This document shows, one piece after another, positions 4,304-30,062 of a DNA stretch of 64,000 nucleotides. The notes beneath the pieces were generated by a model. That model saw only the letters and a list, made by a program, of their open reading frames with translations, searched no databases and was not told where the DNA came from. The DNA lies in the NCBI GenBank assembly GCA_000405225.1, contig ASMP01000002.1:1494-65493 (forward strand), in the 5' to 3' direction. Numbering within the stretch: the stretch's first letter is position 1; each line of letters begins with the position of its first letter. Origin of the DNA: Nanoarchaeota archaeon SCGC AAA011-D5 (GTDB lineage: Archaea; Nanobdellota; Nanobdellia; Pacearchaeales; GW2011-AR1). Position numbers and translations under genes: made by a program.

Positions 4304-7300
4304 ATGCAAAAACCGATAAGAAAAAAAATTAAGGAGATAAGCTTCTCTTTGCTTAGTCCGGAGAAGATAAAAAAGCTCTCTTTTGCAAAGATTGTAACTC
4401 CAGAGCTCTATGACATTGATGGTTATCCTGTTGATGGCGGATTGATGGATTTAAGGCTCGGAGCCATAGACCCTGGGGTGAGATGCCGTACTTGCGGTGG
4501 GCGTTTAAAGGAATGCCTTGGACACTCTGGAAGCATAGACCTCGCGCGCTCCGTAATCCATCTCAAATATGTTCCCATGATTGAACTTGGACTGAGGTGC
4601 TTCTGCCAAAAATGCGGAAAATTACTGCTTTCTGAAAAAGACGAAGGAAAATACCCGCCAAGCATGAGAATCAAGAAATCAAAGGACGTGAAAAAATGCT
4701 TTTATTGCAATACTGCCCAGGAAAAAATAAAACTGGACAAGCCAACGACCTTCTACAGGGGGAAGGCCAGAATCTCTCCGACAGAAATAAGGGACTCTCT
4801 GGTAAATATTCCCGATGAGGAACTGAAAAAGATAGGGATAAATCCGCACTATTTCAGGCCAGAATGGGCTGTGCTCACTATTCTTCTCGTTCCTCCTGTC
4901 ACAGTGAGGCCTTCTATAATTCTGGAATCAGGAGAGAGGAGCGAAGATGATTTGACGCATAAGCTTTCAGACATAATAAGGGCTAACCAAAGGCTATGGG
5001 AAAATCTCAATGCCGGAGCTCCAGAGGTCATCATAGAAGACCTTTGGGATTTACTCCAGTTCCATATAACTACTTTCTTTGACAATACTGTTACTAGAAT
5101 TCCACCTGCAAGGCACAGAAGCGGGCAGCCATTGAAAACGATCACAGAGAGGATAAAGGGCAAGGAGGGAAGGATAAGAAAAAACCTTGCCGGAAAAAGA
5201 GTGAACTATTCAGGAAGAACTGTTATTTCTCCTGATCCGGCTATGCAGATCAATGAAGTAGGAGTTCCTTACGAAATCGCAAAAGTCGTGACTGTTTCAG
5301 AAAGCGTGAATGATCTGAACATGGAAAGACTGAAAAAAATTATAGAACGCGGAGAGGAATATCCTGGAGCAAATTATGTCGTAAGGCCTGATGGGAAAAG
5401 AAAAAAAATAACTCCTGAACTCAAGGAAGAGATAATCAACGAGCTTGTTCCGGGATACAGGGTGGAAAGACATATGGAAAACGGCGACATAGTCCTTTTC
5501 AACAGGCATCCTAGCCTCCACAGGGGAAGCCTGATGGCTCACTATGTAAAAATCCTTCCTGGAAGAACTTTCAGGCTGCATCCTGCGGCTAAAACACCCT
5601 ACAATGCCGACTTCGACGGTGATGAGATGAACATTCATAGTCCGCAGACAGAAGAGGCAAGGGCTGAGGCAAAGATTCTGCTGGAAGTGAAAAAAAACCT
5701 GATTTCCCCGAAGAACAACACGAATTGGATAGGATGCATCAGTGATGCCATAACAGGGGGATATCTCCTCGGACTGGACGAATTTTCAAGGGAAGAGGCG
5801 AACCAGCTTCTTTATAGCTCAGGAGTGGACAGGGAGATTTCAAAGAAAACCGTTTCGGGAACAGAGGTTTTTTCAAAGGCGCTTCCAAAGATAGACTTCT
5901 CAGGGGAATCTGTAAAGATAAAGGAAGGGGAAATAATAAAGGGAATTCCCGATAAAAGTCTTTTCGGCGATGAAGAAGGGTTGCTGATAAAAGAGATAGA
6001 CAGGAAATTTGGAAGAAACATCGCTTTTGATACCATAAGAAAAGTGTTCAACCTCGGAAAAAATTACCTGACAAAAAGAGGGATAACTATCTCTCTTGAC
6101 GATTTCGACGTGGAGCAGAAAATCATTGATATTTCTGAAGAAATAGTGAAAAGAGCAGAGGAAAAAACAAAAGAAATAATAGAAGAATACAACAGGGGAA
6201 CTCTTGAGGTCATTCGGGGAAAAACTCCTGAAGAGTCCAGGGAAATAAAAATCCTAAAGATTCTCAATGAAGTCAGGACAAAGATAGGTGAGACTGTAAA
6301 ATCCGAATTTCCAGAGGAAAATCCTGTCACGCACATGATAAGGTCAGGCGGGGGAGGAAATATGCTCAATATAACCCAAATGGCCTGCTGTGTTGGCCAG
6401 CAGGACCTCGAGGGAAAAAGGATAGACATAGGATTCAACGATAGAACTCTTTCCTTCTTCAAAAGAGGCGATTTGAGCCCGAAGGCAAAGGGTTTCATAA
6501 GAAGTGCATTTATGAAAGGGCTTAGGCCTGAGGAATTTTTCTTCCAGGCAATAACTGGAAGATCTTCTCTGATGGACACTGCCCTGAGAACTCCCAAGTC
6601 AGGATATCTGTATAGAAGGCTGGCAAATGCGCTCCAAGACCTGAGGAGAGAATATGACGGAACGATAAGGGACAGCAACAATAACATAATCCAGTTCATT
6701 TATGGGGACGACGGAATGGACGTATCCCAATTGCACTTAGGAGGAAAACTTGAGGCCGGGGAGGCCATAGGAATAATCACTGCACAGAGTTTCGGGGAAC
6801 CTTCAACGCAGATGGTGCTTAGAACTTTCCACTTCGCGGGTGTTTCTGAGATGCAGGTTACTCAGGGACTGCCAAGACTTATCGAAATTTTTGACGCAAG
6901 AAAAAAACCAAGCTCCCCTAAAATGGAAATTTATCTGAAAAAAGAGTATAATAATGAAAAAGACGCCAAGATCTTTGCGGAAAAAATCAAAGAAATAACA
7001 GTAAAAGATATAGCCTCTGAGATAAGCATAGATTTCTCTGATAAAAAAATAGAGATAAAGATAGACAAAGAGGGTTTGCGGCAAAGCCATTCTTCCCTTA
7101 AAAAAGTGACTGACAAGTTAAAGGAACTTGGTTTTTCCAGCAGGGAAAAAACAGATTTAATATCTGTAAATGCTTCAGAGATGAGTTTTAAGGATGTCTA
7201 TAAACTAAAAGAAAAGTTAAAGAAGACGGTAATTTCGGGGGTAAAGGGAGTAAAACAGATTCTCATAGTAAAGAGGGATAATGATTATGTGGTCATTACC

Positions 7301-7792
7301 CTTGGAACAAATCTCAGGAAAATTCTCGAGATGAAGGAAGTAAATCCGCAAAAGATTATTTCAAACGATCTCCACGAGGTTACAGATGTTTTTGGCATCG
7401 AGGCCGCAAGACAGCTTATAATAGAAGAGATTCAGCAGGTTCTGAATACACAGGGGCTTGATATAGACAAGAGGCACCTGAAGCTTGTTGCAGATGCAAT
7501 GACAAATACAGGAGAAGTGAAAGGAGTTACAAGGATAGGAATAATAGCCCAAAAATCATCAATCCTCGCAAGAGCAACTTTCGAAACTCCTGTAAAACAA
7601 TTCGTGAATGCTACTATAAAAGGAAACAAAGACCAGCTTACAAGTGTTATAGAAAATGTCATTCTCAACCAGCCGGTTCCTGTGGGAACAGGTCTCCCTG
7701 GCTTGCTCGTAAAGGTTGTTGGCCCCCTTATAAAAAAAGAGTCGCAGAAAAAGCCAGCTGAAGCAAAGATTGTTGAAGAAGTAAACAGGTAA
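4304..7792 (+). CDS. rpoA: DNA-directed RNA polymerase subunit A, with A' and A'' portions in one ORF (1162 aa)
   Basis: N-terminal Zn sites CRTCGG..C.GH and CQKCG..CFYC. Catalytic NADFDGDEMN. Trigger-loop region GEPSTQMVLRTFHFAGV and LPRLIEIFDARK (normally at the start of A'') follow IQFIYGDDGMD (normally near the end of A') with no stop in between. Confidence 0.95.
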   Translation: MQKPIRKKIKEISFSLLSPEKIKKLSFAKIVTPELYDIDGYPVDGGLMDLRLGAIDPGVRCRTCGGRLKECLGHSGSIDLARSVIHLKYVPMIELGLRCFCQKCGKLLLSEKDEGKYPPSMRIKKSKDVKKCFYCNTAQEKIKLDKPTTFYRGKARISPTEIRDSLVNIPDEELKKIGINPHYFRPEWAVLTILLVPPVTVRPSIILESGERSEDDLTHKLSDIIRANQRLWENLNAGAPEVIIEDLWDLLQFHITTFFDNTVTRIPPARHRSGQPLKTITERIKGKEGRIRKNLAGKRVNYSGRTVISPDPAMQINEVGVPYEIAKVVTVSESVNDLNMERLKKIIERGEEYPGANYVVRPDGKRKKITPELKEEIINELVPGYRVERHMENGDIVLFNRHPSLHRGSLMAHYVKILPGRTFRLHPAAKTPYNADFDGDEMNIHSPQTEEARAEAKILLEVKKNLISPKNNTNWIGCISDAITGGYLLGLDEFSREEANQLLYSSGVDREISKKTVSGTEVFSKALPKIDFSGESVKIKEGEIIKGIPDKSLFGDEEGLLIKEIDRKFGRNIAFDTIRKVFNLGKNYLTKRGITISLDDFDVEQKIIDISEEIVKRAEEKTKEIIEEYNRGTLEVIRGKTPEESREIKILKILNEVRTKIGETVKSEFPEENPVTHMIRSGGGGNMLNITQMACCVGQQDLEGKRIDIGFNDRTLSFFKRGDLSPKAKGFIRSAFMKGLRPEEFFFQAITGRSSLMDTALRTPKSGYLYRRLANALQDLRREYDGTIRDSNNNIIQFIYGDDGMDVSQLHLGGKLEAGEAIGIITAQSFGEPSTQMVLRTFHFAGVSEMQVTQGLPRLIEIFDARKKPSSPKMEIYLKKEYNNEKDAKIFAEKIKEITVKDIASEISIDFSDKKIEIKIDKEGLRQSHSSLKKVTDKLKELGFSSREKTDLISVNASEMSFKDVYKLKEKLKKTVISGVKGVKQILIVKRDNDYVVITLGTNLRKILEMKEVNPQKIISNDLHEVTDVFGIEAARQLIIEEIQQVLNTQGLDIDKRHLKLVADAMTNTGEVKGVTRIGIIAQKSSILARATFETPVKQFVNATIKGNKDQLTSVIENVILNQPVPVGTGLPGLLVKVVGPLIKKESQKKPAEAKIVEEVNR

Positions 7793-19296: not shown

Positions 19297-20529
19297 ATGA
19301 TACACAAAATGGAAAAGAAATTTTTGGTTTCTTTCCTATTAGCGGTGAGTGTTTTGTTCCTTGCTGCTACTGTAAGCGCTACCAATTTTGCAACCATCAC
19401 AAATGTTGAAGTTGATGGCGTTGATTGGAATAGCAATCCGGCAATAGTTGTCGGGGATTCGGTAACTATAAGAGTTGACTTTAATTCTTTCGTTAGCGCA
19501 TCTGACGTTACAGTAGAAGTGGAACTTGAAAGCGACAAAAAGGATGTTAGATTAGAGACTAGGCCTTTCGATGTCGAGACAGGACAAACATACACAAGAT
19601 CCTTGAGGCTCGAAGTTCCTTTTGACCTGAAAGACACGCTTAGCGAATTTGTTACTTTAACCGTTGAAATTAGCGGAGACGGTTTCAAAACAACAGAGTT
19701 CAGGGAACTGAGACTTCAGAGAACTGCTTTCGATGCAAGCATAAAGGCGATTAGTGTTCCTCAGAGAGTCGGTGCCGGAGAAACTTTCCCGGTCGATGTT
19801 GTTCTGAAGAACATAGGTTACAACGATCTTGATGACCTTCTCGTGACTGCAAGTATGCCTGCCCTTGGCTTAGAAAGAACAGCTTTCTTCGGAGACATCG
19901 TGGCATTGGAATGTGACGATAAAGCTTCATCTGTAGAGAATTACGGTGTCGAAGGTCTAACGAGAAAGTGCGATGAAGATGACCAAGACACAGTCGCTGG
20001 AAGAGTATTCCTTCAGTTGCCGTGGGATGTTGCAGCCGGTGTCTATGCGCTGGAAGTAACTGTCGAGAACGATGACACGAGTTCAAGCAAAATCGTTCAG
20101 GTCGCTGTAGAGAACGCCTTTTCTTCAGGAAACTTTATAGTTTCCGGAAACCAGTTGCTAATAGTGAATCCTACAAACCAGGTAGTTGTCTACAGGGTTG
20201 TTCCTGAATCCACAGGTGCTGTTTCGGTCAGCGTGAGCGACAGTCTTGTCGCAGTTCCAGCTGGATCAAGCAAGACAGTTCTTGTTGACGCAACGTCAAA
20301 TGTTGCAGGAACACAGACATTTGCAGTGAATATTTTCTCTGCAGACGGTTCCCTCCTAGAAAGGGTGGAATTTGCTACATCTGGAAACGGAAAGGATAGC
20401 GGCGCCGCAAGTTCAATCGTTGTATTAACAGTCATACTGGCAATAATATTCATAGTATTGCTAATTGTTCTGATAGTACTGATTGGAAAGAAACCTGAAA
20501 AGGAAGAATTCGGAGAAAGCTATTACTAA
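19297..20529 (+). CDS. cell-surface (S-layer-like) protein: Sec signal, beta-sandwich repeats, C-terminal TM anchor
   Basis: Signal peptide FLLAVSVLFLAATVSA. Repeated beta-rich modules. C-terminal SSIVVLTVILAIIFIVLLIVLIVLIGKKPEKEE. Followed by a long T-rich terminator. Confidence 0.65.
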   Translation: MIHKMEKKFLVSFLLAVSVLFLAATVSATNFATITNVEVDGVDWNSNPAIVVGDSVTIRVDFNSFVSASDVTVEVELESDKKDVRLETRPFDVETGQTYTRSLRLEVPFDLKDTLSEFVTLTVEISGDGFKTTEFRELRLQRTAFDASIKAISVPQRVGAGETFPVDVVLKNIGYNDLDDLLVTASMPALGLERTAFFGDIVALECDDKASSVENYGVEGLTRKCDEDDQDTVAGRVFLQLPWDVAAGVYALEVTVENDDTSSSKIVQVAVENAFSSGNFIVSGNQLLIVNPTNQVVVYRVVPESTGAVSVSVSDSLVAVPAGSSKTVLVDATSNVAGTQTFAVNIFSADGSLLERVEFATSGNGKDSGAASSIVVLTVILAIIFIVLLIVLIVLIGKKPEKEEFGESYY

Positions 20530-20639: not shown

Positions 20640-21152
20640 ATGAAAAAAATAAAACTCGGACAATTAGAAGTTGATTTAGGAGAACTGACTGATTTCATAG
20701 TTGAAGCCAAGAAAAATGGCTATGCTGCGGGCGGAGAAAAAAGAAGATGGTCAGATGGGTCAAAAACATTCACCTTCCATAATGGGAATTTTCATTACAG
20801 AGACAATTATGCTGGCTCTTATCAGGCACCAGGTAGCGAAATAGTAAGATGGAAGAAACCAGATGGCCAGAGAATATGGCAGATGTCTTATTCTGGAGGA
20901 ATACGTCCAGAGTTTTGGGGAAACTCGGAATTAAAAGATCAAACTCTTGGATTTCTTAAGGGAGCTTTACTAAAAGTAAGTCATGCTCATCCTTTTAGAG
21001 GTCCTGAAAGATATAGAGACGGGGGTTTAATATACATCTTAACAATAGATGGGGACATCAGGAAATTCCGTGGCCATGAATGTATAATAAATGAAGATTC
21101 TGATGGTGTTATATTCTCACAACATATAATTGGCTGCTTGGTTGTGCCTTAA
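20640..21152 (+). CDS. conserved hypothetical protein (resembles DUF5680 family)
   Basis: Pattern LTDFIVEAKKNGYA.GG ... YRDNY.G ... W.MSY.GG ... PFRGP recalled from DUF5680-type proteins. From memory, not searched. Confidence 0.45.
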   Translation: MKKIKLGQLEVDLGELTDFIVEAKKNGYAAGGEKRRWSDGSKTFTFHNGNFHYRDNYAGSYQAPGSEIVRWKKPDGQRIWQMSYSGGIRPEFWGNSELKDQTLGFLKGALLKVSHAHPFRGPERYRDGGLIYILTIDGDIRKFRGHECIINEDSDGVIFSQHIIGCLVVP

Positions 21153-21158
21153 AAAACA

Positions 21159-21791
21159 TCATTCCCCAATAAAAGGCACGAAGACAAATCCCGGAAGCCT
21201 TTTTATCATCTCAAATTCAGAGCTTGATTTTCTTTGGATAGCAATGATTTCTTGTTCAAAACGGGAGCCTTTTGGAGCAACAAGAATCCCTCTGTTTTTC
21301 AGCTGGCTCATTATTTCTTCAGGAATATTTCTCATGGCGGCGCTGATAATTACTGAATCAAATGGTGCTTTTTCCGGAAGGCCTTTAGAGCCGTTTTTAT
21401 TGTATACATTGATATTGTCATATTCAACAAGATTTTCCTTTGATTTTTCAGCAAGTTCTTTTACAATTTCCAGTCCGTAAACCTTGCCTTGTTCACCGAC
21501 AATTTCTGAAAGCAAAGCAAGAACATAACCGCATCCAGAGCCGATTTCAAGAACTTTCTGTCCCTTCCTTAAATCCAGAAGAGAGAGCATCACAGCAATC
21601 GTGTATGGCTGGCTTATTGTTTGGCCATGACCTATTGGAAGAGCAGTGTCCTTGTAAGCCATTGCCTTTATGTTTTTAGGAATGAAATCCTCTCTTTTGA
21701 CTGAAGAGAATGCATCAAGAATTTTTTCGGAAAATCCTTTTTCCTTAAGGCTATTTAGGAGCTCTTTCTTGTTCATTTTTAGTTGAAACAC
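21159..21791 (-). CDS. pcm: protein-L-isoaspartate O-methyltransferase
   Basis: GHGQTISQPYTIAVMLSLL and the SAM motif VLEIGSGCGY. Confidence 0.9.
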   Translation of the reverse strand: MFQLKMNKKELLNSLKEKGFSEKILDAFSSVKREDFIPKNIKAMAYKDTALPIGHGQTISQPYTIAVMLSLLDLRKGQKVLEIGSGCGYVLALLSEIVGEQGKVYGLEIVKELAEKSKENLVEYDNINVYNKNGSKGLPEKAPFDSVIISAAMRNIPEEIMSQLKNRGILVAPKGSRFEQEIIAIQRKSSSEFEMIKRLPGFVFVPFIGE

Positions 21792-21857: not shown

Positions 21858-22142
21858 ATGAAAGTAGCTATTTATTGTGAATTGCCAGGAACATATTTAG
21901 AACATGTTAGGGGAATGCTTTCTGATCTTGAAATACTCGCAACAAAAGAAATTCCACATGACGAAAGAATAAAAGCTTTGCTTACAGACCCAACAGTAAA
22001 GGAGAGAATAATAAGGGTTAGGGTTGGTTCTCCAATTTTTTATAATGTTGCAGATTATGCTCAAGATGAAATAGGGAGAGAGATATTATTAAGTAGGAAA
22101 GAATATACTTCCAAAGAATTTAGACCTACACCTTCAAGCTAA
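21858..22142 (+). CDS. hypothetical protein (94 aa from the first ATG; track ORF starts at TTG 21783)
   Basis: ORF track. 3' end overlaps the smc-like gene's 3' end by 17 nt. No motif. Confidence 0.35.
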   Translation: MKVAIYCELPGTYLEHVRGMLSDLEILATKEIPHDERIKALLTDPTVKERIIRVRVGSPIFYNVADYAQDEIGREILLSRKEYTSKEFRPTPSS

Positions 22143-24993
22143 TTATCTTTGAAACTCCCTCATGCATGCTCACACCATATAGGTTTGTGGCTCTGGAAAT
22201 GACTTCATCGTTGTGTGTTATAACTAGGTACTGTCCTTTCTGCATGTACTTATTAAGAAGGCCTGCAAGCCTTTCTGAATTCCTTTTGTCGAGGGCAGCA
22301 TCTATTTCATCCAGAAGGTAGAAATAGTAAGGTCTATATTCCTGGATTGCAAAAATTAGAGACAGGGCAACAAGAGTCTGCTCTCCTCCTGAAAGTGACT
22401 TTACATCGAAGTATCTTCCATGCCCTGTCTTTACAGTTATTTGGACTCCTGTTCCTGGTTCAAAGGGCTCTTTTGGATTTTCAAGCTCAAGATAAACATG
22501 TCCTTTTGGGCTTAGCTCGGAGAAATTTCTGGAGAACAGTTCATTGAGTGTTTTCAGCGTTTGCAGGAACACTTTTTTCTTTTTTGTGTCTATCTCTTCT
22601 ATTATTTTCAGGACTCCCTGTTTTTCTTTTTCTATGATTTCTGCTTTTTCTTTTATCAAGTCATATTCTTTCTTTATTGAGTCATAGACCTCAAGAGAGC
22701 GGAGGTTTACAGAACCGATAGTTAAAAAAGCCTCTTGGGATTTTACAAGCCTTTCGGTTAATGCCTCCCTGTTGCCTCTTATTAAATCTGCTTCACCAAA
22801 ACCAGAGAGTTCTGTCTGGAGATTTTCTGCTTCTGCGTCTGTTCTTGCTTTTTCTATTTTCAGCTCATTGGTTTGCTGCTCTACATTATATATTTCCTGC
22901 TGTTTTTTTGAGATTTCAAGCTTTAGGTCATTGGTTTTTCTCTGTGCACTGTCTCGCTCAGAAATAAGCTCTTTGAATTTTTTTGAAAGCTGCTCTTCCT
23001 GAAGCCTTTTTTTCTGCAGTATCTTTTCTTTTTCTTCAATATTCTTTGTTAAGGATGAAAGCTCCTCACTTAGTTCTTCTTCATTCCTTAAAGCCTGCTT
23101 TATCTGCACTTTAAGACGTTCAATTTCGCTTTCCTTGAAAGAGACCTCTGAATCAACATTTTCCCTTGTTCTTATTGAGACTTCCTCTACTTCTATTCTT
23201 AGTACTTCATATTTCTCCTCTATTCTTTGATTGGCCCCGACTTCTTCCTCAACTTTCTTTCTTTTTTTCATGACAGACGAAATTTCCTCCTTGATAGCAT
23301 CTGCCTTTTTCTGAAGGTTTTTGATTTGTTCTTTCTTTTCTTCTATAGAGGAAAGCTTTCCCAGATCCGAGCCTGTTTTTGATATTTCGCCAGAAATCTG
23401 CTCTGTTTCCTTGGAGAGCAACTCTTTTTTTTCGCGGATTTCTTTAAGCTCTCTGTTTGAAGATTCAATATCTTTTTTCAGAAAGTCTATTCTTGGAAAA
23501 ATTTCTTTTTTTATTATTTCCATATGCTCCCTGGTGATTTTACTTTTGCAGACAGGGCATACGTCCATTTTTGAGATTTTTTCGAGCATTTTGTTGTGGT
23601 TTTCTATTTCAGACTCGTTTGCATAGCTTATTCTCTCAAGTTCATTTTCTCTTTTTGATAACGAATTCGAGGCCTCATTTTTCTCTGCAAGACCATGCCT
23701 TAATTTGCTCATTTTTTCTCTTGATGATCTTTTATCAAAGAGTGCTGCGGAAATATTTTCTATCTGCTTAAGAAGAAAATCGGATTCGCCGATGTAGCTC
23801 TGGAAGAGGTTGTTTTTGTCTTGAAGAATTTCCTTTAAGCTTTTCAATTCTGATTTTGCCATGTAGAACTTTTTTCTTAGAGCATCAAGCTTTTCCAGCT
23901 CTAGTTTTTTCCTTTCAACTTCCCTGAGTTTGGTCTCAGAACTAAACCCTGTTTTTTTCAGACTTTTAACAACTTCACCAATAACCTTTAGTGTTTCCTG
24001 GAATTCTTTTTTCTGCCCTGATAACTCTGAGATTTTTGATGCGTGGTTTTCTTTTCTTACATTCAATGCAGCAAGGTCTGCTCTTAGATTGGCTATTTCG
24101 GAGTTCAAAGCCTCTTGTTCAAGTCCGGTTGATTCCTGAATCTGCCTGTTTATTCCAGATATTTTCAATTCCAGATTTTTTATTTCTGTCTCAAAGCCAA
24201 GCACCGCTTTTCTTACCGAGCTTATTTCTTTGTTTTTTTCAGATATTTTTGAGTTTATCGTCTCTGCCCCTCTTTTCTTTTCCGACAAAGACAGGTTTAT
24301 TATGCTGGCCTTCAGTTTCCTGATTTCTGCCTCAAGTTTCTTGTATTTGAGTGCTTGCTGCCTTTCTTTCTCTAAGTTGTTCAAATATGCCGTCCTTTCC
24401 CTCAGCACAAAATGAACTTCCTTCAATTTTTCCTCTGTTTTTTCAAGTTCGTGCATTGACTTTTCCTTTCTTGTTTCGTATACTGAGATTCCAGAAACCT
24501 CTTCAATTACCGAGCGCCTCTCCTCTGTCTGCATTCTCACAAAATTTTGAATCTCTCCTTGGAGTATTATGTTGAATCCCTGGGGGTCTATGCCTGCCTG
24601 CGCGAGCAAAGAGAGAACCTCCTGCCTTGTTTTCGTTTCGCCGTTAATTTTGTAAATGCTTTGTCCGTTTTTTCTCACTATTCTTTTTATCATGATCTCC
24701 TGTTTTTCTATAGAGAAGATTTTCCCGGAATTATCAAAGACTATTTCTACAGATGCTTCTTTCGCAGGAGCCATATCCTTTCCTCCGAGAAAGATTAGAT
24801 TGCCTGCCCTGGCAGCCCTTAAAGATTTCATGCTCATCCTTCCTAGGACAAAGCAGATAGCGTCAGAGATGTTTGATTTTCCAGAGCCGTTTGGCCCAAG
24901 AACCACATTTATTCCCGGGGTAAATGGGATTTCAGTTTTTCTTGGAAAGCTTTTAAAGCCCTGCATTATCAGCTTTTTTATATACATTTTCAA
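22126..24993 (-). CDS. smc: SMC-family ATPase with SMC-type heads, no hinge domain, and a central CPVC zinc-hook-like motif (955 aa)
   Basis: Walker A GPNGSGKSN. SMC-specific QGEIQNFVRMQTEERRSVIEEVSGISVYETRKEK. Signature LSGGEQTLVALSLIFAIQ. Walker B/D-loop YLLDEIDAALD. Continuous coiled-coil sequence in between. MDVCPVCKSKITREH at residues ~476-490 of 955. Confidence 0.85.
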   Translation of the reverse strand: MKMYIKKLIMQGFKSFPRKTEIPFTPGINVVLGPNGSGKSNISDAICFVLGRMSMKSLRAARAGNLIFLGGKDMAPAKEASVEIVFDNSGKIFSIEKQEIMIKRIVRKNGQSIYKINGETKTRQEVLSLLAQAGIDPQGFNIILQGEIQNFVRMQTEERRSVIEEVSGISVYETRKEKSMHELEKTEEKLKEVHFVLRERTAYLNNLEKERQQALKYKKLEAEIRKLKASIINLSLSEKKRGAETINSKISEKNKEISSVRKAVLGFETEIKNLELKISGINRQIQESTGLEQEALNSEIANLRADLAALNVRKENHASKISELSGQKKEFQETLKVIGEVVKSLKKTGFSSETKLREVERKKLELEKLDALRKKFYMAKSELKSLKEILQDKNNLFQSYIGESDFLLKQIENISAALFDKRSSREKMSKLRHGLAEKNEASNSLSKRENELERISYANESEIENHNKMLEKISKMDVCPVCKSKITREHMEIIKKEIFPRIDFLKKDIESSNRELKEIREKKELLSKETEQISGEISKTGSDLGKLSSIEEKKEQIKNLQKKADAIKEEISSVMKKRKKVEEEVGANQRIEEKYEVLRIEVEEVSIRTRENVDSEVSFKESEIERLKVQIKQALRNEEELSEELSSLTKNIEEKEKILQKKRLQEEQLSKKFKELISERDSAQRKTNDLKLEISKKQQEIYNVEQQTNELKIEKARTDAEAENLQTELSGFGEADLIRGNREALTERLVKSQEAFLTIGSVNLRSLEVYDSIKKEYDLIKEKAEIIEKEKQGVLKIIEEIDTKKKKVFLQTLKTLNELFSRNFSELSPKGHVYLELENPKEPFEPGTGVQITVKTGHGRYFDVKSLSGGEQTLVALSLIFAIQEYRPYYFYLLDEIDAALDKRNSERLAGLLNKYMQKGQYLVITHNDEVISRATNLYGVSMHEGVSKIISLKV

Positions 24994-25021: not shown

Positions 25022-26008
25022 TTATATTTGAGGATATGCTCCAGGATAATAATCTAATTTATCTTCATTAATTACCACAACGAAGTCGTAATGCTTAATT
25101 GTATCTGAAAACTTATCTCTCAGATCCAACATTATTTTATGAAATTTATTAAAATTTTCAATTTCAAAATCAAGTTCAATATCCCAGGAACCTATTACAT
25201 TGATTATATAAGTAAGATTTTTTAAATTATTGCAATAACTAAAAAATTCTTCATATTTTTCTTTTGTTTGACTTTTGAATTTTATTAAAGCCTTGCAATA
25301 AATCCAATCAAGTTTATTAAGGTTAAGAAAGATTCTACTTATTAAAATTATCTTTTCTTTTTTTAAGTTTTTTATTCTATAATTTACAATTCTTGGGGTG
25401 GTTTTTAGCCTATAAGCAATTTCAGTTATTGGCATTCTTGCATTATTAACCAATAATTTAATAATTTCTTCATCTATTTTATCAATCTTTAAGTTTCCTA
25501 TTTGTTCTCCTTGATAAACCACAGGATAACGTCTTTTTTCTTCCAAGAGGTAGTCTTTTCTCCAGTGGGGAACACCTAAACTGATAGACGTTTCCCTAGA
25601 AGAAATATATTGACTGAATTTTTCATCTAATTCTTTTATTGCTTCGTCAAATTCATACACATCTTTCACGAGATATCCCACTATAAGATCCCATTTTCCA
25701 GAGCAGGTTGCTATCCATTCTGTTTTTTTGTGTGCTTTAAGAAACTCTGTGATTTCATTTATTTTTTGTTTATCTGCATTCTCAAAAGAAAGATAAATTT
25801 TGTATTTTGATAAACCTAATTTATATGTATCAATAACAGTGGCAAATCTTGAAATATACTTTTCTTTGATTAGTCTTTTTATCCTATAAGCAACTGTTTG
25901 TTTTGATAAGGCCACTTTTTTACCTATCTCCGAATCTGTCTGTCTGGAATCTATATCTAACTGATAAAGTATTTTTCTATCTTTTAAATCTAAAATATCT
26001 TTAATCAT
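25022..26008 (-). CDS. tandem-duplicated Lrp/AsnC-like transcriptional regulator (2 x wHTH + effector-like domain)
   Basis: Two copies of the pattern LD..D.KIL..L..(D/N)(S/A)R....EI(G/A)....(S/T)...V.YRIK.L: residues ~5-50 and ~175-215. Confidence 0.65.
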   Translation of the reverse strand: MIKDILDLKDRKILYQLDIDSRQTDSEIGKKVALSKQTVAYRIKRLIKEKYISRFATVIDTYKLGLSKYKIYLSFENADKQKINEITEFLKAHKKTEWIATCSGKWDLIVGYLVKDVYEFDEAIKELDEKFSQYISSRETSISLGVPHWRKDYLLEEKRRYPVVYQGEQIGNLKIDKIDEEIIKLLVNNARMPITEIAYRLKTTPRIVNYRIKNLKKEKIILISRIFLNLNKLDWIYCKALIKFKSQTKEKYEEFFSYCNNLKNLTYIINVIGSWDIELDFEIENFNKFHKIMLDLRDKFSDTIKHYDFVVVINEDKLDYYPGAYPQI

Positions 26009-26128: not shown

Positions 26129-26950
26129 ATGAAAAGCAATCATTCAACAGGAACAGAAATTCCCATGTGGAAAAAATGGGAAAGATTTGATGGAAGAAGT
26201 TATCTACGAGACGGTGTCTTGCGGGCCATTAGAGAAAAAAAGTTTGAAACTGCCTTGGGTTTAGTTTGTATGTATGAAAATCATATGCATCTTCATTCAG
26301 GCATTCCGTATGGAAAAAATCCCCATATTAATGAAACAATTTCTGCTCTGGAAAACAGAATTAAAACTTCACTAATATGCTCTAGAATTTTAGGAGAAAC
26401 ATATAACCCTTTTTGTCACAATGTTTTTAACGATGTTTATGACAGGGCTGTAGATAATCTCTTAAGATTGTGTAAAACTATAGAAGGTAGACTTGAATAT
26501 AATTTAGAAAGAGGAAGAAAAGACCTAAAGGAAGCAAGAGGATATATTTTTAATTTTAGCCAAGAGACTGATGAAGCTATTGAACTTGCTAAAAAAGGAT
26601 CAAAGTGGTCAAATGCTTTAAATCGTATTAGAAAACCTAGTCGTAAAAACGCAGAAGAGATGAAGAAAAGGGGGGTTTATTCGTATGCTCACTCTGCGAT
26701 TCCTGATAGAATTTTTAGTGATGAGTTAAAGAGGGAAAAAGAAATTGAATCTTACAGAGATTTTTTCTCCCAAAAACTTGAAGAAGCTCAAAGATTGAAA
26801 GAAGAACGTCATCAGAAACATCTGGAATTGAAAAAAGAAAATGAGAGACTAAACCAAGAAAGAAAATCTAAAGACACACAAATTAAAACAAATGAAGTTT
26901 TTGTAAAACCCAATTTTATTTCAAGGCTTAAGAGAATATTTTTTAATTAA
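26129..26950 (+). CDS. hypothetical protein with C-terminal coiled coil (273 aa)
   Basis: ORF track. Charged heptad-like C-terminus. No motif. Confidence 0.45.
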   Translation: MKSNHSTGTEIPMWKKWERFDGRSYLRDGVLRAIREKKFETALGLVCMYENHMHLHSGIPYGKNPHINETISALENRIKTSLICSRILGETYNPFCHNVFNDVYDRAVDNLLRLCKTIEGRLEYNLERGRKDLKEARGYIFNFSQETDEAIELAKKGSKWSNALNRIRKPSRKNAEEMKKRGVYSYAHSAIPDRIFSDELKREKEIESYRDFFSQKLEEAQRLKEERHQKHLELKKENERLNQERKSKDTQIKTNEVFVKPNFISRLKRIFFN

Positions 26951-27486: not shown

Positions 27487-28173
27487 TCAGAATAACTTTT
27501 TCTGTCCTGCGTCATGACTGGCTTTTTTCCAGGTTTTCCAGCTCTTCCTGAAAATTCCTTTATGTTCCAGCTTTTTTATGTTTTTCTGCAGGAACTTTGC
27601 CGTTCTTTGGTCTGAAGAATATCCTGAACCGATGTGGTCTCCATATTTCTTTCTTAAAATATCCATTTCCCTTTCCCTTTCTTCTTTTGCCAGGACAGAT
27701 GCAGCGGAAACAGCTACATGATTTACATCTGCTTTATGTTCGCAGAGTATCACAAGGTTAGAAAGGTTTTCTATTTTTGTCTGCACGGTGTCTCTCCATT
27801 TAGCCCTGTTTGTAGACGGGCAGTCTATCACGACTTTTATTTTCATGCCGGCGACACTAGGAGCCTTGTTTATTTCATTGATAATTTTGGCAGCCATTTG
27901 TGCTTCTAAATCATTCAAATTTACTCCGAAATGGTCCTTCCCATCTATTTCTGGGGGGTGCTTCACCTGAATCGCGAATGCTTCTGCCTTTTCCTTTATG
28001 TGTGATTCTAAAAAAGCCCTTCTTTTTTTAGTCAGTTGCTTACTGTCTTTCACGCCGAGCCTTTTCAGCTCTTTTTCTGTGTCTTCTGTGATAAGGCAAC
28101 CGGCAAGAACCATCGGACCTATCACGGGGCCACGCCCAGCATCATCAATCCCAAGAATAAGTTTTCTCTCCAT
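27487..28173 (-). CDS. rnhB: ribonuclease HII
   Basis: LGIDDAGRGPVIGPMVLAG active-site motif. DSKQLT. 228 aa. Confidence 0.9.
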   Translation of the reverse strand: MERKLILGIDDAGRGPVIGPMVLAGCLITEDTEKELKRLGVKDSKQLTKKRRAFLESHIKEKAEAFAIQVKHPPEIDGKDHFGVNLNDLEAQMAAKIINEINKAPSVAGMKIKVVIDCPSTNRAKWRDTVQTKIENLSNLVILCEHKADVNHVAVSAASVLAKEEREREMDILRKKYGDHIGSGYSSDQRTAKFLQKNIKKLEHKGIFRKSWKTWKKASHDAGQKKLF

Positions 28174-29924: not shown

Positions 29925-30062
29925 GCCCATGTCGCATAGTGGTATTGCAGCGGATTGCTAACAGGAAGAACCAAGGTTCTTCTATGATGACATCTCCTTT
30001 TTGGAGAAAAGACAAACATCCGCGCCCTTCGGGGTTCGCAGGTTCGATTCCTGCCGTGGGCG
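29925..30062 (+). tRNA. tRNA-Ser (anticodon GCT) with a ~57-nt intron 3' of anticodon-loop position 37
   Basis: Acceptor GCCCATG/CGTGGGC. Anticodon stem GCGGA...TCCGC with loop TTGCTAA interrupted at ~29961-30017. Long variable arm GCCCTTCGGGGTTC. T arm GCAGG-TTCGATT-CCTGC. Discriminator G. TTTTTTAAGC box ~34 nt upstream, and T5 downstream. Confidence 0.8.

What the first reader, a model, noticed from the sequence alone, without database searches (positions are those of the whole stretch)
22126..24993. SMC-type head domains joined by a coiled coil whose apex is a Rad50-type CPVC zinc hook instead of a hinge
Seen in sequence:
- The N- and C-terminal head halves are SMC-like rather than Rad50-like. 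Evidence is FKSF..GPNGSGKSNISDAICFVLG, QGEIQNFVRMQTEERRSVIEEVSGISVYETRKEK, IGSVNLRSLEVYD, LSGGEQTLVALSLIFAIQ and LLDEIDAALD.
- The protein is only 955 aa.
- It has no ~150-aa globular hinge.
- It carries MDVCPVCKSKITREH at residues ~476-490, the midpoint of the sequence (Cys codons at nt 23548-23559).

Established knowledge: canonical SMC proteins dimerise through a hinge domain. Rad50/SbcC proteins dimerise through a CxxC zinc hook; the P. furiosus hook reads approximately CPVCGRELT.EH (from memory).

Inference: this is a hybrid architecture in which an SMC/condensin-like ATPase dimerises through a zinc hook. No Mre11, ScpA or ScpB gene is adjacent in this window.
Basis: partly seen in the sequence, partly recalled or inferred. 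Interest (0 to 1): 0.7.

Follow-up and report, generated by a model that had tools for sequence, protein, structure and literature searches.

The report
Archaeal SMC with zinc-hook apex
The chromosome-organising SMC protein of a large group of tiny DPANN archaea has lost the 'hinge' domain normally used to pair two SMC molecules and carries a Rad50-style zinc-hook motif in its place. This looks like a natural version of a domain swap so far only made in the laboratory.

Summary
ORF 22126-24993(-) encodes a 955-aa protein (probably 953 aa from the ATG at 24987). Its ATPase head halves are canonical SMC: Pyrococcus Smc E=6e-105, Rad50 about 1e-13; TIGR02169 521 bits, Rad50 117, ASRP 127. It has two ~305-residue helical arms and no hinge. 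A 12-residue turn with CPVC sits at the exact midpoint.

The apex profile's three best PDB hits are the three Rad50 zinc-hook crystal structures. 18 of 24 diverse apexes hit Pfam Rad50_zn_hook.

The protein belongs to a conserved family of at least 213 GTDB species genomes of Pacearchaeota/Nanoarchaeota. In a head-domain tree the family forms one clan (bootstrap 0.93) and everything outside it is hinge-type. The gene occupies the same locus (RNase HII upstream) as the hinge-type SMC of Woesearchaeota. It is therefore most likely the orthologous SMC with hinge swapped for hook, not a Rad50, ASRP or defence paralogue.

Zinc binding, dimerisation and a kleisin partner are inferred or unresolved.

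Engineered Smc(Zh) chimeras, hook-bearing ASRPs and CXXC-less hinge-less actinobacterial SMCs are published. I found no description of a natural hook-bearing SMC. Some sublineages have also lost the hook.

The parts
22126..24993 (-). smc gene, hook type: 955 aa from TTG at 24993; the likely true start is ATG at 24987, giving 953 aa; stop codon at 22126-22128
24469..24993 (-). N-terminal half of the SMC ABC-ATPase head (residues 1-175), including Walker A GPNGSGKS (nt 24874-24897) and the Q-loop LQGE at residue 144
23569..24468 (-). Ascending coiled-coil arm (residues 176-475, about 300 aa; helix breaks at 348-351 and 417-424). Aligns to SMC_prok_A model positions up to 481
23524..23565 (-). 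Rad50-type zinc-hook motif DVCPVCKSKITREH (residues 477-490). CPVC is at nt 23548-23559. C479, P480, C482, T487 and H490 are invariant in the close family. It lies within the non-helical turn at residues 476-487
22627..23532 (-). Descending coiled-coil arm (residues 488-789, about 302 aa; breaks at 588-590, 607-612, 731-741 and 759-764)
22129..22626 (-). C-terminal half of the SMC head (residues 790-955): signature LSGGE at 867-871, Walker B/D-loop FYLLDEIDAALD at 891-902 (nt 22288-22395), H-loop ITHN at 925-928
27487..28173 (-). RNase HII gene, the conserved upstream same-strand neighbour of the SMC gene. It is present in 69 of 86 hook-family loci and also upstream of the Woesearchaeota hinge-type SMC. 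It is used here as a marker of positional orthology, not as a functional partner
21159..21791 (-). Protein-L-isoaspartate O-methyltransferase (PCMT) gene, a recurrent downstream neighbour (49 of 86 loci, downstream in 43). Synteny marker only

Best explanation
This is the chromosomal SMC (condensin-type Smc) of a Pacearchaeota/Nanoarchaeota (DPANN) archaeon. In the ancestor of this clade the ~150-residue hinge, plus about 25 residues of each adjacent arm, was replaced by a ~26-residue Rad50-type zinc hook.

Proposed mechanism. Each polypeptide folds back on itself into a ~300-residue antiparallel coiled coil. This brings the Walker A half and the signature/Walker B half together into one ABC-ATPase head. 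At the far end, two protomers each contribute the two cysteines of CPxC to one tetrahedrally bound Zn2+, giving a constitutive homodimer. ATP then engages and releases the two heads, as in any Smc.

Shown here: the architecture, the SMC identity of the heads, the absence of a hinge, the Rad50-hook-like sequence and hairpin fold of the apex, conservation of the family, its monophyly, and its positional orthology with hinge-type SMC.

Inferred: zinc binding, hook-mediated dimerisation, retention of the chromosome-organising function, and origin of the hook by capture from an archaeal Rad50 rather than by convergence.
For: - Heads. Pfam SMC_N scores 2.3e-56. TIGR02169 and TIGR02168 score 521 and 512 bits, with the N-terminal stretch 4-475 aligned to model positions 1-481. 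ASRP scores 127 bits and Rad50 117 bits. The best PDB hits are all Smc heads (5xei, 6e-105); Rad50 is at about 1e-13. All ATPase motifs are intact.
- No hinge.. Alignment with Woesearchaeota SMCs shows about 152 hinge columns replaced by about 26 residues, with both arms still aligned.
- Structure. The full-length AF2 model has helices 170-475 and 488-730 joined by a turn at 476-487. The apex model has pLDDT 94.3 and pTM 0.70. Among Foldseek targets that contain an apex, the Rad50 Zn hooks match: 1L8D with TM 0.72 (normalised to the target) and 23% identity, plus 5GOX and 7ZQY.
- Hook. The apex profile hits 1L8D at 5.7e-9, 6ZFF at 3.9e-8 and 5GOX at 4.6e-5; everything else is at 1e-3 or worse. 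18 of 24 diverse apexes hit PF04423, best 1.6e-7. About 20 of the 39 bits come from the 14-residue core, and shuffled sequences score about 0.
- Family. All 120 closest homologues carry the motif. It is conserved to about 39% identity. 213 confirmed loci were found in GTDB species genomes. The inter-head span is fixed at 614-617 residues in most members.
- Orthology. Hook proteins form a clan with bootstrap 0.925 (together with four hookless derivatives), and everything outside it is hinge-type. The nearest hinge-type relatives are Woesearchaeota/Nanoarchaeia. They share the locus: RNase HII upstream, and CN_hydrolase, ATP-grasp, DUF5680 and a surface protein downstream.
- Plausibility. B. subtilis Smc with the P. 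furiosus Rad50 hook in place of its hinge supports normal growth (PMC5344682). Hook and hinge are interchangeable in S. pombe Rad50 (PMC6969161).
Against: - No direct evidence for Zn binding or dimerisation.
- The window protein's own PF04423 score is below Pfam's gathering threshold: 17.3 bits full-length and 22.2 bits for the apex alone, against 24.3.
- No kleisin or ScpB was found in the window, in nine annotated loci with up to 10 kb of flank, or in about 1 Mb of loci scanned with a bacterial ScpA profile of low sensitivity. So a complete Smc-ScpAB-type ring is unproven.
- I could not check whether the same genomes also encode a hinge-type SMC or a Rad50.
- The tree is NJ on 338 columns. 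It is unrooted or midpoint-rooted, with weak support for the exact sister group.
- Some members of the clan have lost the hook altogether, so apex dimerisation may be less critical than assumed.
Confidence: 0.75

Rival explanations
1. It is a divergent Rad50/SbcC: a double-strand-break repair ATPase working with Mre11, whose heads merely look SMC-like.
For: It has a CPxC hook with Rad50-like flanks. The NCBIfam Rad50 model PRK03918 aligns end to end in a single stretch, residues 3-950 to model positions 1-875 of 878. Its length of about 950 aa is Rad50-like.
Against: The Rad50 model scores 117 bits against a cut-off of 700, while SMC models score 521 and 512 bits. PDB Smc heads score about 90 orders of magnitude better than Rad50 heads. 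The arms align with SMC arms on both sides of the missing hinge. The family is nested among hinge-type SMCs and shares their locus. No Mre11 was seen in the window or in the annotated neighbourhoods.
Confidence: 0.03
2. It is an extra SMC-related paralogue, like ASRP/ClsN/Sph or a defence-system SMC-like ATPase such as Lamassu LmuB, Wadjet JetC or MADS. It would coexist with a canonical SMC elsewhere in the genome and have a different job.
For: ASRPs are archaeal SMC-related proteins with zinc hooks (PMC9389158). PADLOC gives mad3 at 177 bits and LmuB at 99 bits. I could not survey whole genomes. One MAG holds two hook-type copies that are 56% identical.
Against: ASRP scores 127 bits against a cut-off of 300 and ASRPs are about 590 aa. 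The PADLOC scores are far below the SMC scores and cover only generic head regions. The gene sits in a housekeeping locus that is syntenic with the hinge-type SMC of the sister lineage. No defence genes are adjacent. The closest relatives by sequence are canonical DPANN SMCs. These genomes are very small, with near-complete contigs of about 0.6 Mb.
Confidence: 0.1
3. The SMC is orthologous, but the CPxC is not an intermolecular zinc hook. It could be a redox-sensitive or structural turn. Dimerisation would then occur elsewhere, for example by arm-arm packing or head engagement only, or the protein would act without a stable apex dimer.
For: Hookless derivatives with no apex Cys/His motif exist inside the same clan at the same locus. 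Hinge-less, CXXC-less SMCs exist in marine Actinobacteria (PMC12153180). There is no experimental or multimer-model evidence for Zn.
Against: C, P and C are invariant across the hook-type members down to about 39% identity, while nearly all flanking residues vary. The similarity to real Rad50 hooks extends beyond CxxC to the downstream hydrophobic-T-x-E-H positions. The only described role of the apical CxxC in Rad50 is intermolecular Zn(Cys)4 coordination, which is established knowledge (Hopfner 2002, cited in PMC5344682).
Confidence: 0.1
4. Artefact: a mis-assembled or chimeric gene, or a truncated or pseudogenised SMC that lost its hinge by deletion in one MAG.
For: The sequence is from an uncultured organism.
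Against: There are hundreds of independent sequences from NCBI, JGI, ENA and Logan assemblies, on contigs up to 0.89 Mb. They share the same architecture and a fixed inter-head length. Purifying selection is strong: mean column identity is 74%, with invariant catalytic and hook residues.
Confidence: 0.01

Closest known systems
Canonical prokaryotic Smc (Smc-ScpAB condensin; TIGR02169/TIGR02168), e.g. Pyrococcus and B. subtilis Smc
   Same: The head sequence and all ATPase motifs are shared. Arm length is about 300 residues per strand. The arms align up to the hinge boundary. The chromosomal locus matches that of the sister lineage's SMC, and the heads group phylogenetically with archaeal SMC.
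   Different: The hinge domain (PF06470) is missing entirely and a ~26-residue CPxC hook stands in its place. The protein therefore falls below the equivalog cut-offs (521 vs 729 bits). Partner subunits ScpA/ScpB were not found.
Engineered B. subtilis Smc(Zh) chimera (Smc hinge replaced by the P. furiosus Rad50 zinc hook; Burmann et al. 2017, PMC5344682)
   Same: The architecture is essentially identical: Smc heads and arms with a Rad50-type hook at the apex. The chimera supported normal growth and kept the dependence on arm length. The very tight arm length of the natural family echoes that constraint.
   Different: The chimera is a laboratory construct in a bacterium. This one is a natural, ancient variant fixed across a clade of archaea, and its function has not been tested.
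Rad50/SbcC zinc hook (PF04423; PDB 1L8D, 6ZFF, 5GOX)
   Same: An apical CPxC in a short turn between antiparallel helices. The archaeal-type continuation is shared: CPVCGRELTDEH in P. furiosus against CPVCKSKITREH here. Profile E-values are 5.7e-9 to 4.6e-5.
   Different: Here it is attached to SMC-type heads and arms rather than Rad50-type ones. No Mre11 is nearby. The window protein's own Pfam score is just below threshold.
Archaea-specific SMC-related proteins (ASRP: ClsN/coalescin, Sph1/Sph2; NF045487; Yoshinaga et al. 2022, PMC9389158)
   Same: Archaeal proteins of the SMC superfamily with a coiled coil and a zinc-hook motif instead of a hinge.
   Different: ASRPs are a separate family of about 590 aa with divergent heads. 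This protein scores 127 bits against a cut-off of 300 on the ASRP model and 521 bits on the SMC model, and it groups with canonical SMC.
'Hinge-less' SMC variants of marine Actinobacteria (Environ Microbiome 2025, PMC12153180)
   Same: Bona fide SMC-type heads and arms with no hinge domain. They resemble the hookless ~800-aa derivatives seen inside this archaeal clan.
   Different: They are bacterial and explicitly lack a CXXC motif. The present family is archaeal and has an invariant Rad50-type CPxC.

Membership tests
Canonical SMC (prokaryotic Smc, TIGR02169/TIGR02168) | Split ABC-ATPase head of SMC type: Walker A at the N-terminus, signature, Walker B, D-loop and H-loop at the C-terminus | tested here: met
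   SMC_N 2.3e-56. PDB Smc heads down to 6e-105. Motifs located.
Canonical SMC (prokaryotic Smc, TIGR02169/TIGR02168) | Long intramolecular antiparallel coiled-coil arm, about 300 residues per strand | tested here: met
   AF2 helices 170-475 and 488-730+. Apex model pLDDT 94. Arms of 303 and 307 residues. N-terminal stretch (head plus arm, residues 4-475) aligns to SMC_prok_A positions 1-481.
Canonical SMC (prokaryotic Smc, TIGR02169/TIGR02168) | Central globular hinge dimerisation domain (PF06470) | tested here: not met
   No PF06470 hit, while relatives score 1e-31 to 1e-35. Local hinge HMM negative. About 152 hinge columns absent. AF2 shows no globular apex.
Canonical SMC (prokaryotic Smc, TIGR02169/TIGR02168) | Score above the curated equivalog cut-off | tested here: not met
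   520.8 bits against 729.4 (TIGR02169) and 512.2 against 567.35 (TIGR02168). The shortfall is consistent with the missing hinge.
Canonical SMC (prokaryotic Smc, TIGR02169/TIGR02168) | Orthology with SMC of related organisms, by phylogeny and genomic position | tested here: met
   The hook proteins form a clan with bootstrap 0.925 and everything outside it is hinge-type SMC. The nearest relatives are Woesearchaeota/Nanoarchaeia SMC. Shared RNase HII-SMC locus and downstream genes. Caveat: NJ tree, no formal outgroup.
Canonical SMC (prokaryotic Smc, TIGR02169/TIGR02168) | Kleisin (ScpA) and KITE (ScpB) partner subunits | tested here: inconclusive
   None in the window, none in nine annotated loci with up to 10 kb of flank, and none in about 1 Mb of loci with a bacterial ScpA HMM. 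Hinge-type DPANN SMC loci also lack an adjacent ScpA. Whole genomes could not be searched.
Rad50/SbcC | CxxC zinc-hook motif at the coiled-coil apex | tested here: met
   CPVC at the midpoint turn. Family profile against Rad50 hook structures: 5.7e-9, 3.9e-8 and 4.6e-5. PF04423 hit in 18 of 24 apexes. The window protein itself is sub-threshold at 17.3 and 22.2 bits against 24.3.
Rad50/SbcC | Rad50-type ATPase head, scoring above the family cut-off | tested here: not met
   The best Rad50 model scores 117 bits against a cut-off of 700. PDB Rad50 heads are at about 1e-13 against Smc at 1e-105.
Rad50/SbcC | Mre11/SbcD nuclease partner, usually encoded adjacently | tested here: not met
   No Mre11-type phosphoesterase in the window or in the annotated neighbourhoods. 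Presence elsewhere in the genome was not testable.
Rad50/SbcC | Zn2+-dependent intermolecular dimerisation through four cysteines | not testable with these tools
   Only monomer AF2 without ligands was available. This needs AF-Multimer/AF3 with Zn, or biochemistry.
ASRP (ClsN/Sph; NF045487) | Score above the ASRP equivalog cut-off, with the short (~590 aa) architecture | tested here: not met
   126.6 bits against a cut-off of 300, in three partial stretches. The protein is 955 aa with full-length SMC arms.
ASRP (ClsN/Sph; NF045487) | Zinc-hook motif in place of a hinge | tested here: met
   This feature is shared with ASRPs according to PMC9389158.
Defence-system SMC-like ATPases (Lamassu LmuB, Wadjet JetC, MADS mad3) | Best match to a defence-family model, and location in a defence operon | tested here: not met
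   mad3 at 177 bits (C-terminal head only), LmuB at 99 bits, JetC at 31 bits, against SMC at 521 bits. The neighbours are housekeeping genes.

The most novel reading that the evidence does not exclude
The only SMC of a large archaeal clade (Pacearchaeota and relatives, at least 213 species-level genomes) naturally exchanged its hinge for a zinc hook, probably captured from an archaeal Rad50. Several sublineages then shortened the arms and discarded even the hook. If so, neither the hinge's DNA-binding or gate functions nor, in some lineages, any dedicated apex dimerisation module is required for a native SMC to work. These reduced genomes may also run the SMC without a recognisable kleisin, or use one hook-bearing protein for both chromosome folding and Rad50-like DNA tethering.
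Probability: 0.45. Interest if true: 0.78.

Novelty: new variant of a known kind. Interest (0 to 1): 0.66.

Why it matters
The hinge is treated as a defining feature of true SMC proteins. It has been assigned roles in dimerisation, DNA binding and DNA entry. Laboratory chimeras showed that a Rad50 hook can replace it in B. subtilis (PMC5344682).

This family suggests evolution made the same swap and kept it across a whole, widespread archaeal lineage, with arm length held almost invariant. That gives a natural system for three questions:
- Which hinge functions are dispensable?
- How do arm length and geometry constrain SMC action?
- How do modules move between SMC-superfamily members (SMC, Rad50, ASRP)?

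The hookless derivatives extend the series hinge, then hook, then nothing within one orthologous gene.

There is also a practical point. The family falls below the SMC equivalog cut-offs, so it gets only generic names in public annotation ('chromosome segregation SMC family protein', sometimes 'AAA family ATPase' or 'hypothetical protein'). Surveys that define SMC by its hinge, or Rad50 by CXXC, will misclassify it.

Tried and rejected
- A single-sequence phmmer search of the 65-aa apex against the PDB found only noise. A family profile was needed.
A tighter alignment, A4, worked.
- Kleisin hunt. I checked ten annotated loci with up to 10 kb of flank (one on a contig of only 3.2 kb): six from the hook/hookless clan and four carrying hinge-type DPANN SMCs. 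None had an adjacent ScpA. Local ScpA N- and C-domain HMMs against 2,868 ORFs from 1.03 Mb of loci gave nothing below E=0.1. The profile is bacterial and has low sensitivity.
- Agnostic neighbour clustering over 86 loci found RNase HII, PCMT, a surface protein, a DnaG-like Toprim protein and Dtd, but no conserved candidate partner.
- Co-occurrence test. I searched with the hinge of the nearest hinge-type SMC, hoping to match contig-length fingerprints of hook-bearing contigs. It returned only 19 short fragments and was uninformative.
- Literature searches for SMC + zinc hook + DPANN, Pacearchaeota or Nanoarchaeota found nothing that describes this family. The closest prior art is hinge-less, CXXC-less actinobacterial SMC.
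- Rad50, ASRP, defence-system and artefact readings were considered and rejected (see the rival explanations).
- Foldseek on the apex model is only supportive. Most hits are generic antiparallel coiled coils, and only one reaches E=0.001.

Full report
**1. The observation**

The ORF at 22126-24993 on the minus strand is real and encodes 955 aa from a TTG. An ATG two codons downstream (nt 24987) gives 953 aa, the length of the closest homologues, and is probably the true start.

- GPNGSGKS at residues 33-40.
- LQGE at residue 144.
- LSGGE at residues 867-871.
- FYLLDEIDAALD at residues 891-902.
- ITHN at residues 925-928.
- DVCPVCKSKITREH at residues 477-490, with CPVC encoded at nt 23548-23559.

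The protein has only three cysteines: C47 and the two in CPVC.

**2. What the parts are**

*Heads.* The whole protein matches Pfam SMC_N at 2.3e-56. NCBIfam scores:

| Model | Bits |
|---|---|
| SMC_prok_A | 520.8 |
| SMC_prok_B | 512.2 |
| ASRP | 126.6 |
| Best Rad50 model | 117.3 |

In the SMC_prok_A match, residues 4-475 align to model positions 1-481. Against solved structures, the best 45 or so hits are all SMC heads, led by Pyrococcus 5xei at 6e-105. Rad50 heads appear only at about 1e-13. The heads are therefore canonical SMC, not Rad50 and not ASRP.

*No hinge.* Pfam finds no SMC_hinge domain here. It finds one at E=1e-31 to 1e-35 in the nearest hinge-bearing relatives. A local hinge HMM detects 103 of 160 sampled relatives and none of the hook proteins.

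*Predicted structure.* A full-length AlphaFold2 model (pLDDT 74; the heads are poorly modelled because the alignment is shallow) shows helices 170-475 and 488-730, with short breaks, joined by a non-helical turn at 476-487. A model of residues 380-580 is confident (pLDDT 94.3, pTM 0.70). It is an antiparallel helical hairpin with a 13-residue turn carrying CPVC. The arms are 303 and 307 residues long, so the motif sits at the geometric apex.

**3. Is the apex a Rad50-type hook?**

- A profile of 24 diverse 95-residue apex segments, searched against all PDB sequences, returned three top hits. They are exactly the three Rad50 zinc-hook crystal structures: P. furiosus 1L8D (5.7e-9), P. furiosus 6ZFF (3.9e-8) and human 5GOX (4.6e-5). 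The full-length human RAD50 chain follows at 1.3e-3. All non-Rad50 hits are coiled-coil noise at 1e-3 or worse.
- The alignment places D-x-CPlCkskitkeh against KgKCPVCGRELTDEH. The resemblance therefore extends past CxxC to the hydrophobic, T, E and H positions.
- 18 of 24 apex segments individually hit Pfam Rad50_zn_hook (best 1.6e-7), and no other family is hit by more than two.
- The window protein's own score is just below Pfam's threshold: 17.3 bits full-length and 22.2 bits for the apex alone, against 24.3.
- A control decomposition shows the score is not a composition effect:

| Target version | Bits |
|---|---|
| Full P. furiosus hook segment | 39.1 |
| 14-residue core kept, flanks shuffled | 19.9 +/- 3.8 |
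| Core changed to Ala | 8.3 |
| Everything shuffled | about 0 |

- Foldseek on the apex model gives mostly generic coiled-coil hairpins. Those with a real apex are Rad50 hooks: 1L8D with TM 0.72 (normalised to the target) and 23% identity, plus 5GOX and 7ZQY. This is supportive only.

**4. The family**

- All 120 closest database clusters (62-96% identity, 935-960 aa apart from one intein-bearing member of 1,465 aa; MAGs labelled Pacearchaeota, Nanoarchaeota or Nanoarchaeia) carry D-x-C-P-x-C-K-x-x-[IV]-T-x-x-H at the midpoint.
- An exhaustive search of 1.84 billion cluster representatives shows hook-type proteins down to about 39% identity, still with CPxC.
- In 231 family members the hook lies at relative position 0.501 +/- 0.007.
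- The distance between the head halves is 614-617 residues in most members. That is a striking constraint, given that arm length is functionally tuned in B. subtilis Smc (PMC5344682).
- A scan of one genome per GTDB species with the apex pattern found 213 confirmed loci. The best 80 are essentially all DPANN MAGs.

**5. Orthologue or paralogue?**

*Phylogeny.* I built a bootstrapped NJ tree on 338 head columns from 137 sequences. The 29 hook proteins plus four ~800-aa hookless proteins form one clan (bootstrap 0.925). Every sequence outside the clan is hinge-type. The most similar hinge-type proteins are from Woesearchaeota/Nanoarchaeia, and Euryarchaeota are further away.

*What was replaced.* Aligned against those relatives, the hook proteins lack about 152 columns, which is the entire hinge. 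About 26 residues stand in its place, and the arms align on both sides.

*Synteny.*
- RNase HII lies immediately upstream on the same strand in 69 of 86 hook-family loci.
- This includes the deepest-branching members.
- The same RNase HII-SMC arrangement flanks the Woesearchaeota hinge-type SMC. There it is followed by CN_hydrolase and ATP-grasp/RimK, as in locus L003, and by DUF5680 and a ~410-430-aa surface protein, as in this window.

*Local context.* The window itself is core chromosome: rpoB, rpoA, EF-2, EF-1alpha, aminoacyl-tRNA synthetases and an intron-containing tRNA. PADLOC defence models score far below SMC models.

Together this supports in-situ replacement of the hinge in the orthologous SMC gene. 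I could not search whole genomes, so a coexisting hinge-type SMC or a Rad50 is not formally excluded. The attempt was uninformative.

**6. Partners**

No ScpA, ScpB, Mre11 or Rad50 was recognised:
- in the window;
- in the annotated flanks of family members or of hinge-type DPANN relatives;
- in about 1 Mb of loci scanned with a low-sensitivity bacterial ScpA profile.

Hinge-type DPANN SMC genes also lack an adjacent scpA, so this says little about whether a kleisin exists elsewhere in the genome.

**7. Mechanism**

- *Shown:* an intact SMC ATPase head, full-length SMC arms and a hook-like apex.
- *Inferred from established Rad50 knowledge:* two protomers each donate the CPxC cysteines to one Zn2+, giving a constitutive dimer that stands in for hinge dimerisation.
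- *Inferred from the chimera experiments (PMC5344682; PMC6969161):* such a molecule can perform normal Smc functions.
- *Origin of the hook:* the closer match to the archaeal Rad50 hook than to the human one is consistent with capture of the module from an archaeal Rad50. Convergence is not excluded.

**8. Comparison with what is known**

Published cases that come close:
- Engineered Smc(Zh) chimeras.
- ASRP/ClsN, a separate, shorter hook-bearing family (PMC9389158).
- Hinge-less SMC variants in marine Actinobacteria, which explicitly lack CXXC (PMC12153180).

I found no description of a natural bona fide SMC with a zinc hook. The library does not cover most subscription journals. Public annotation calls these proteins simply 'chromosome segregation SMC family protein'.

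I therefore rate this a new variant of a known kind.

**9. Side finding**

Inside the hook clan there is a group of about 26 clusters of 750-810-aa proteins with no hinge, no CxxC and no conserved apex motif. Their inter-head span is about 150-170 residues shorter. They sit at the same RNase HII-SMC locus. This suggests secondary loss of the hook together with the distal arms.

**Verdict**

The best explanation (confidence 0.75) is an orthologous SMC whose hinge was replaced by a Rad50-type zinc hook. Interest is 0.66.

Noticed in passing
Related proteins P0140/P0275/P0277 (804 aa), P0142, P0144, P0145, P0294-P0374; locus L011 10001-12415: Inside the hook-SMC clan there is a group of about 26 clusters of 750-810-aa SMCs with neither a hinge nor a CxxC, and no conserved apex motif. 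They lack the hook plus about 55-80 residues of each distal arm. They sit at the same RNase HII-SMC locus, on contigs up to 171 kb. They resemble the CXXC-less 'hinge-less' actinobacterial SMCs reported in 2025.
   Followed up: partly
Related proteins P0076, P0122, P0127 (hook type); P0152, P0171, P0175, P0178, P0182, P0190 (hinge type); P0309: Many DPANN SMC genes of both hook and hinge types are 1,335-1,800 aa. They carry an insertion of about 500-580 aa around the Walker A motif. The insertion has Pfam LAGLIDADG/intein domains wherever Pfam annotation was available (P0076, P0309), so it is most likely an intein in the P-loop.
   Followed up: no
Hook family as a whole: The distance between the N- and C-head halves is fixed at 614-617 residues in most hook-type members. 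Hinge-type relatives fall into distinct length classes: about 760-850, about 600-630 and about 460-500 residues. Short-arm hinge-type SMCs include P0150 (943 aa), P0160 (963 aa) and several of about 800-850 aa. This suggests quantised arm lengths.
   Followed up: partly
window 4304-7792 (+): The RNA polymerase largest subunit is a single 1,162-aa ORF containing Rpb1 domains 1-5. In most archaea this subunit is split into A' and A''. It may be fused here.
   Followed up: no
window 29925-30062 (+): Rfam's tRNA model matches a 138-nt stretch (43 bits) that ARAGORN did not call. This is consistent with an intron-containing archaeal tRNA.
   Followed up: no
window 25022-26008 (-): Immediately upstream of smc is a 328-aa protein with two tandem AsnC/Lrp-type HTH modules. 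This gene and ORF 26129-26950 lie between RNase HII and smc only in this genome. In most relatives RNase HII is directly adjacent.
   Followed up: no
L017 and L065 (MAG CAZGUQ01); L074 and L075 (MAG CAZOAN01): Two GTDB MAGs each hold two hook-SMC loci. L074 and L075 are identical duplicate contigs. L017 and L065 are only 56% identical, which means either a mixed bin or a genuine pair of paralogues.
   Followed up: partly
window 19297-20529 (+) and 20640-21152 (+): A ~410-aa protein with a signal peptide and a C-terminal TM anchor, and no Pfam hit, recurs convergently downstream of smc in 52 of 86 loci. It is probably a surface protein. Next to it in the window is a DUF5680 protein, which is also present near the Woesearchaeota hinge-type SMC.
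   Followed up: partly
window 22126-24993 (-), residues 686-954: The PADLOC model mad3 (MADS defence system) matches the C-terminal head at 177 bits. This probably reflects an SMC-derived component in that system, not a defence role here.
   Followed up: no
P0042/L057 ('Patescibacteria group bacterium'), L086 ('Bacillota bacterium'), P0176 ('Nitrospiraceae bacterium'), L047 ('Iainarchaeum'): Several public MAG records that carry these archaeal SMC genes are labelled as bacteria or as other archaeal phyla. This is probably mis-binning or loose taxonomy.
   Followed up: no
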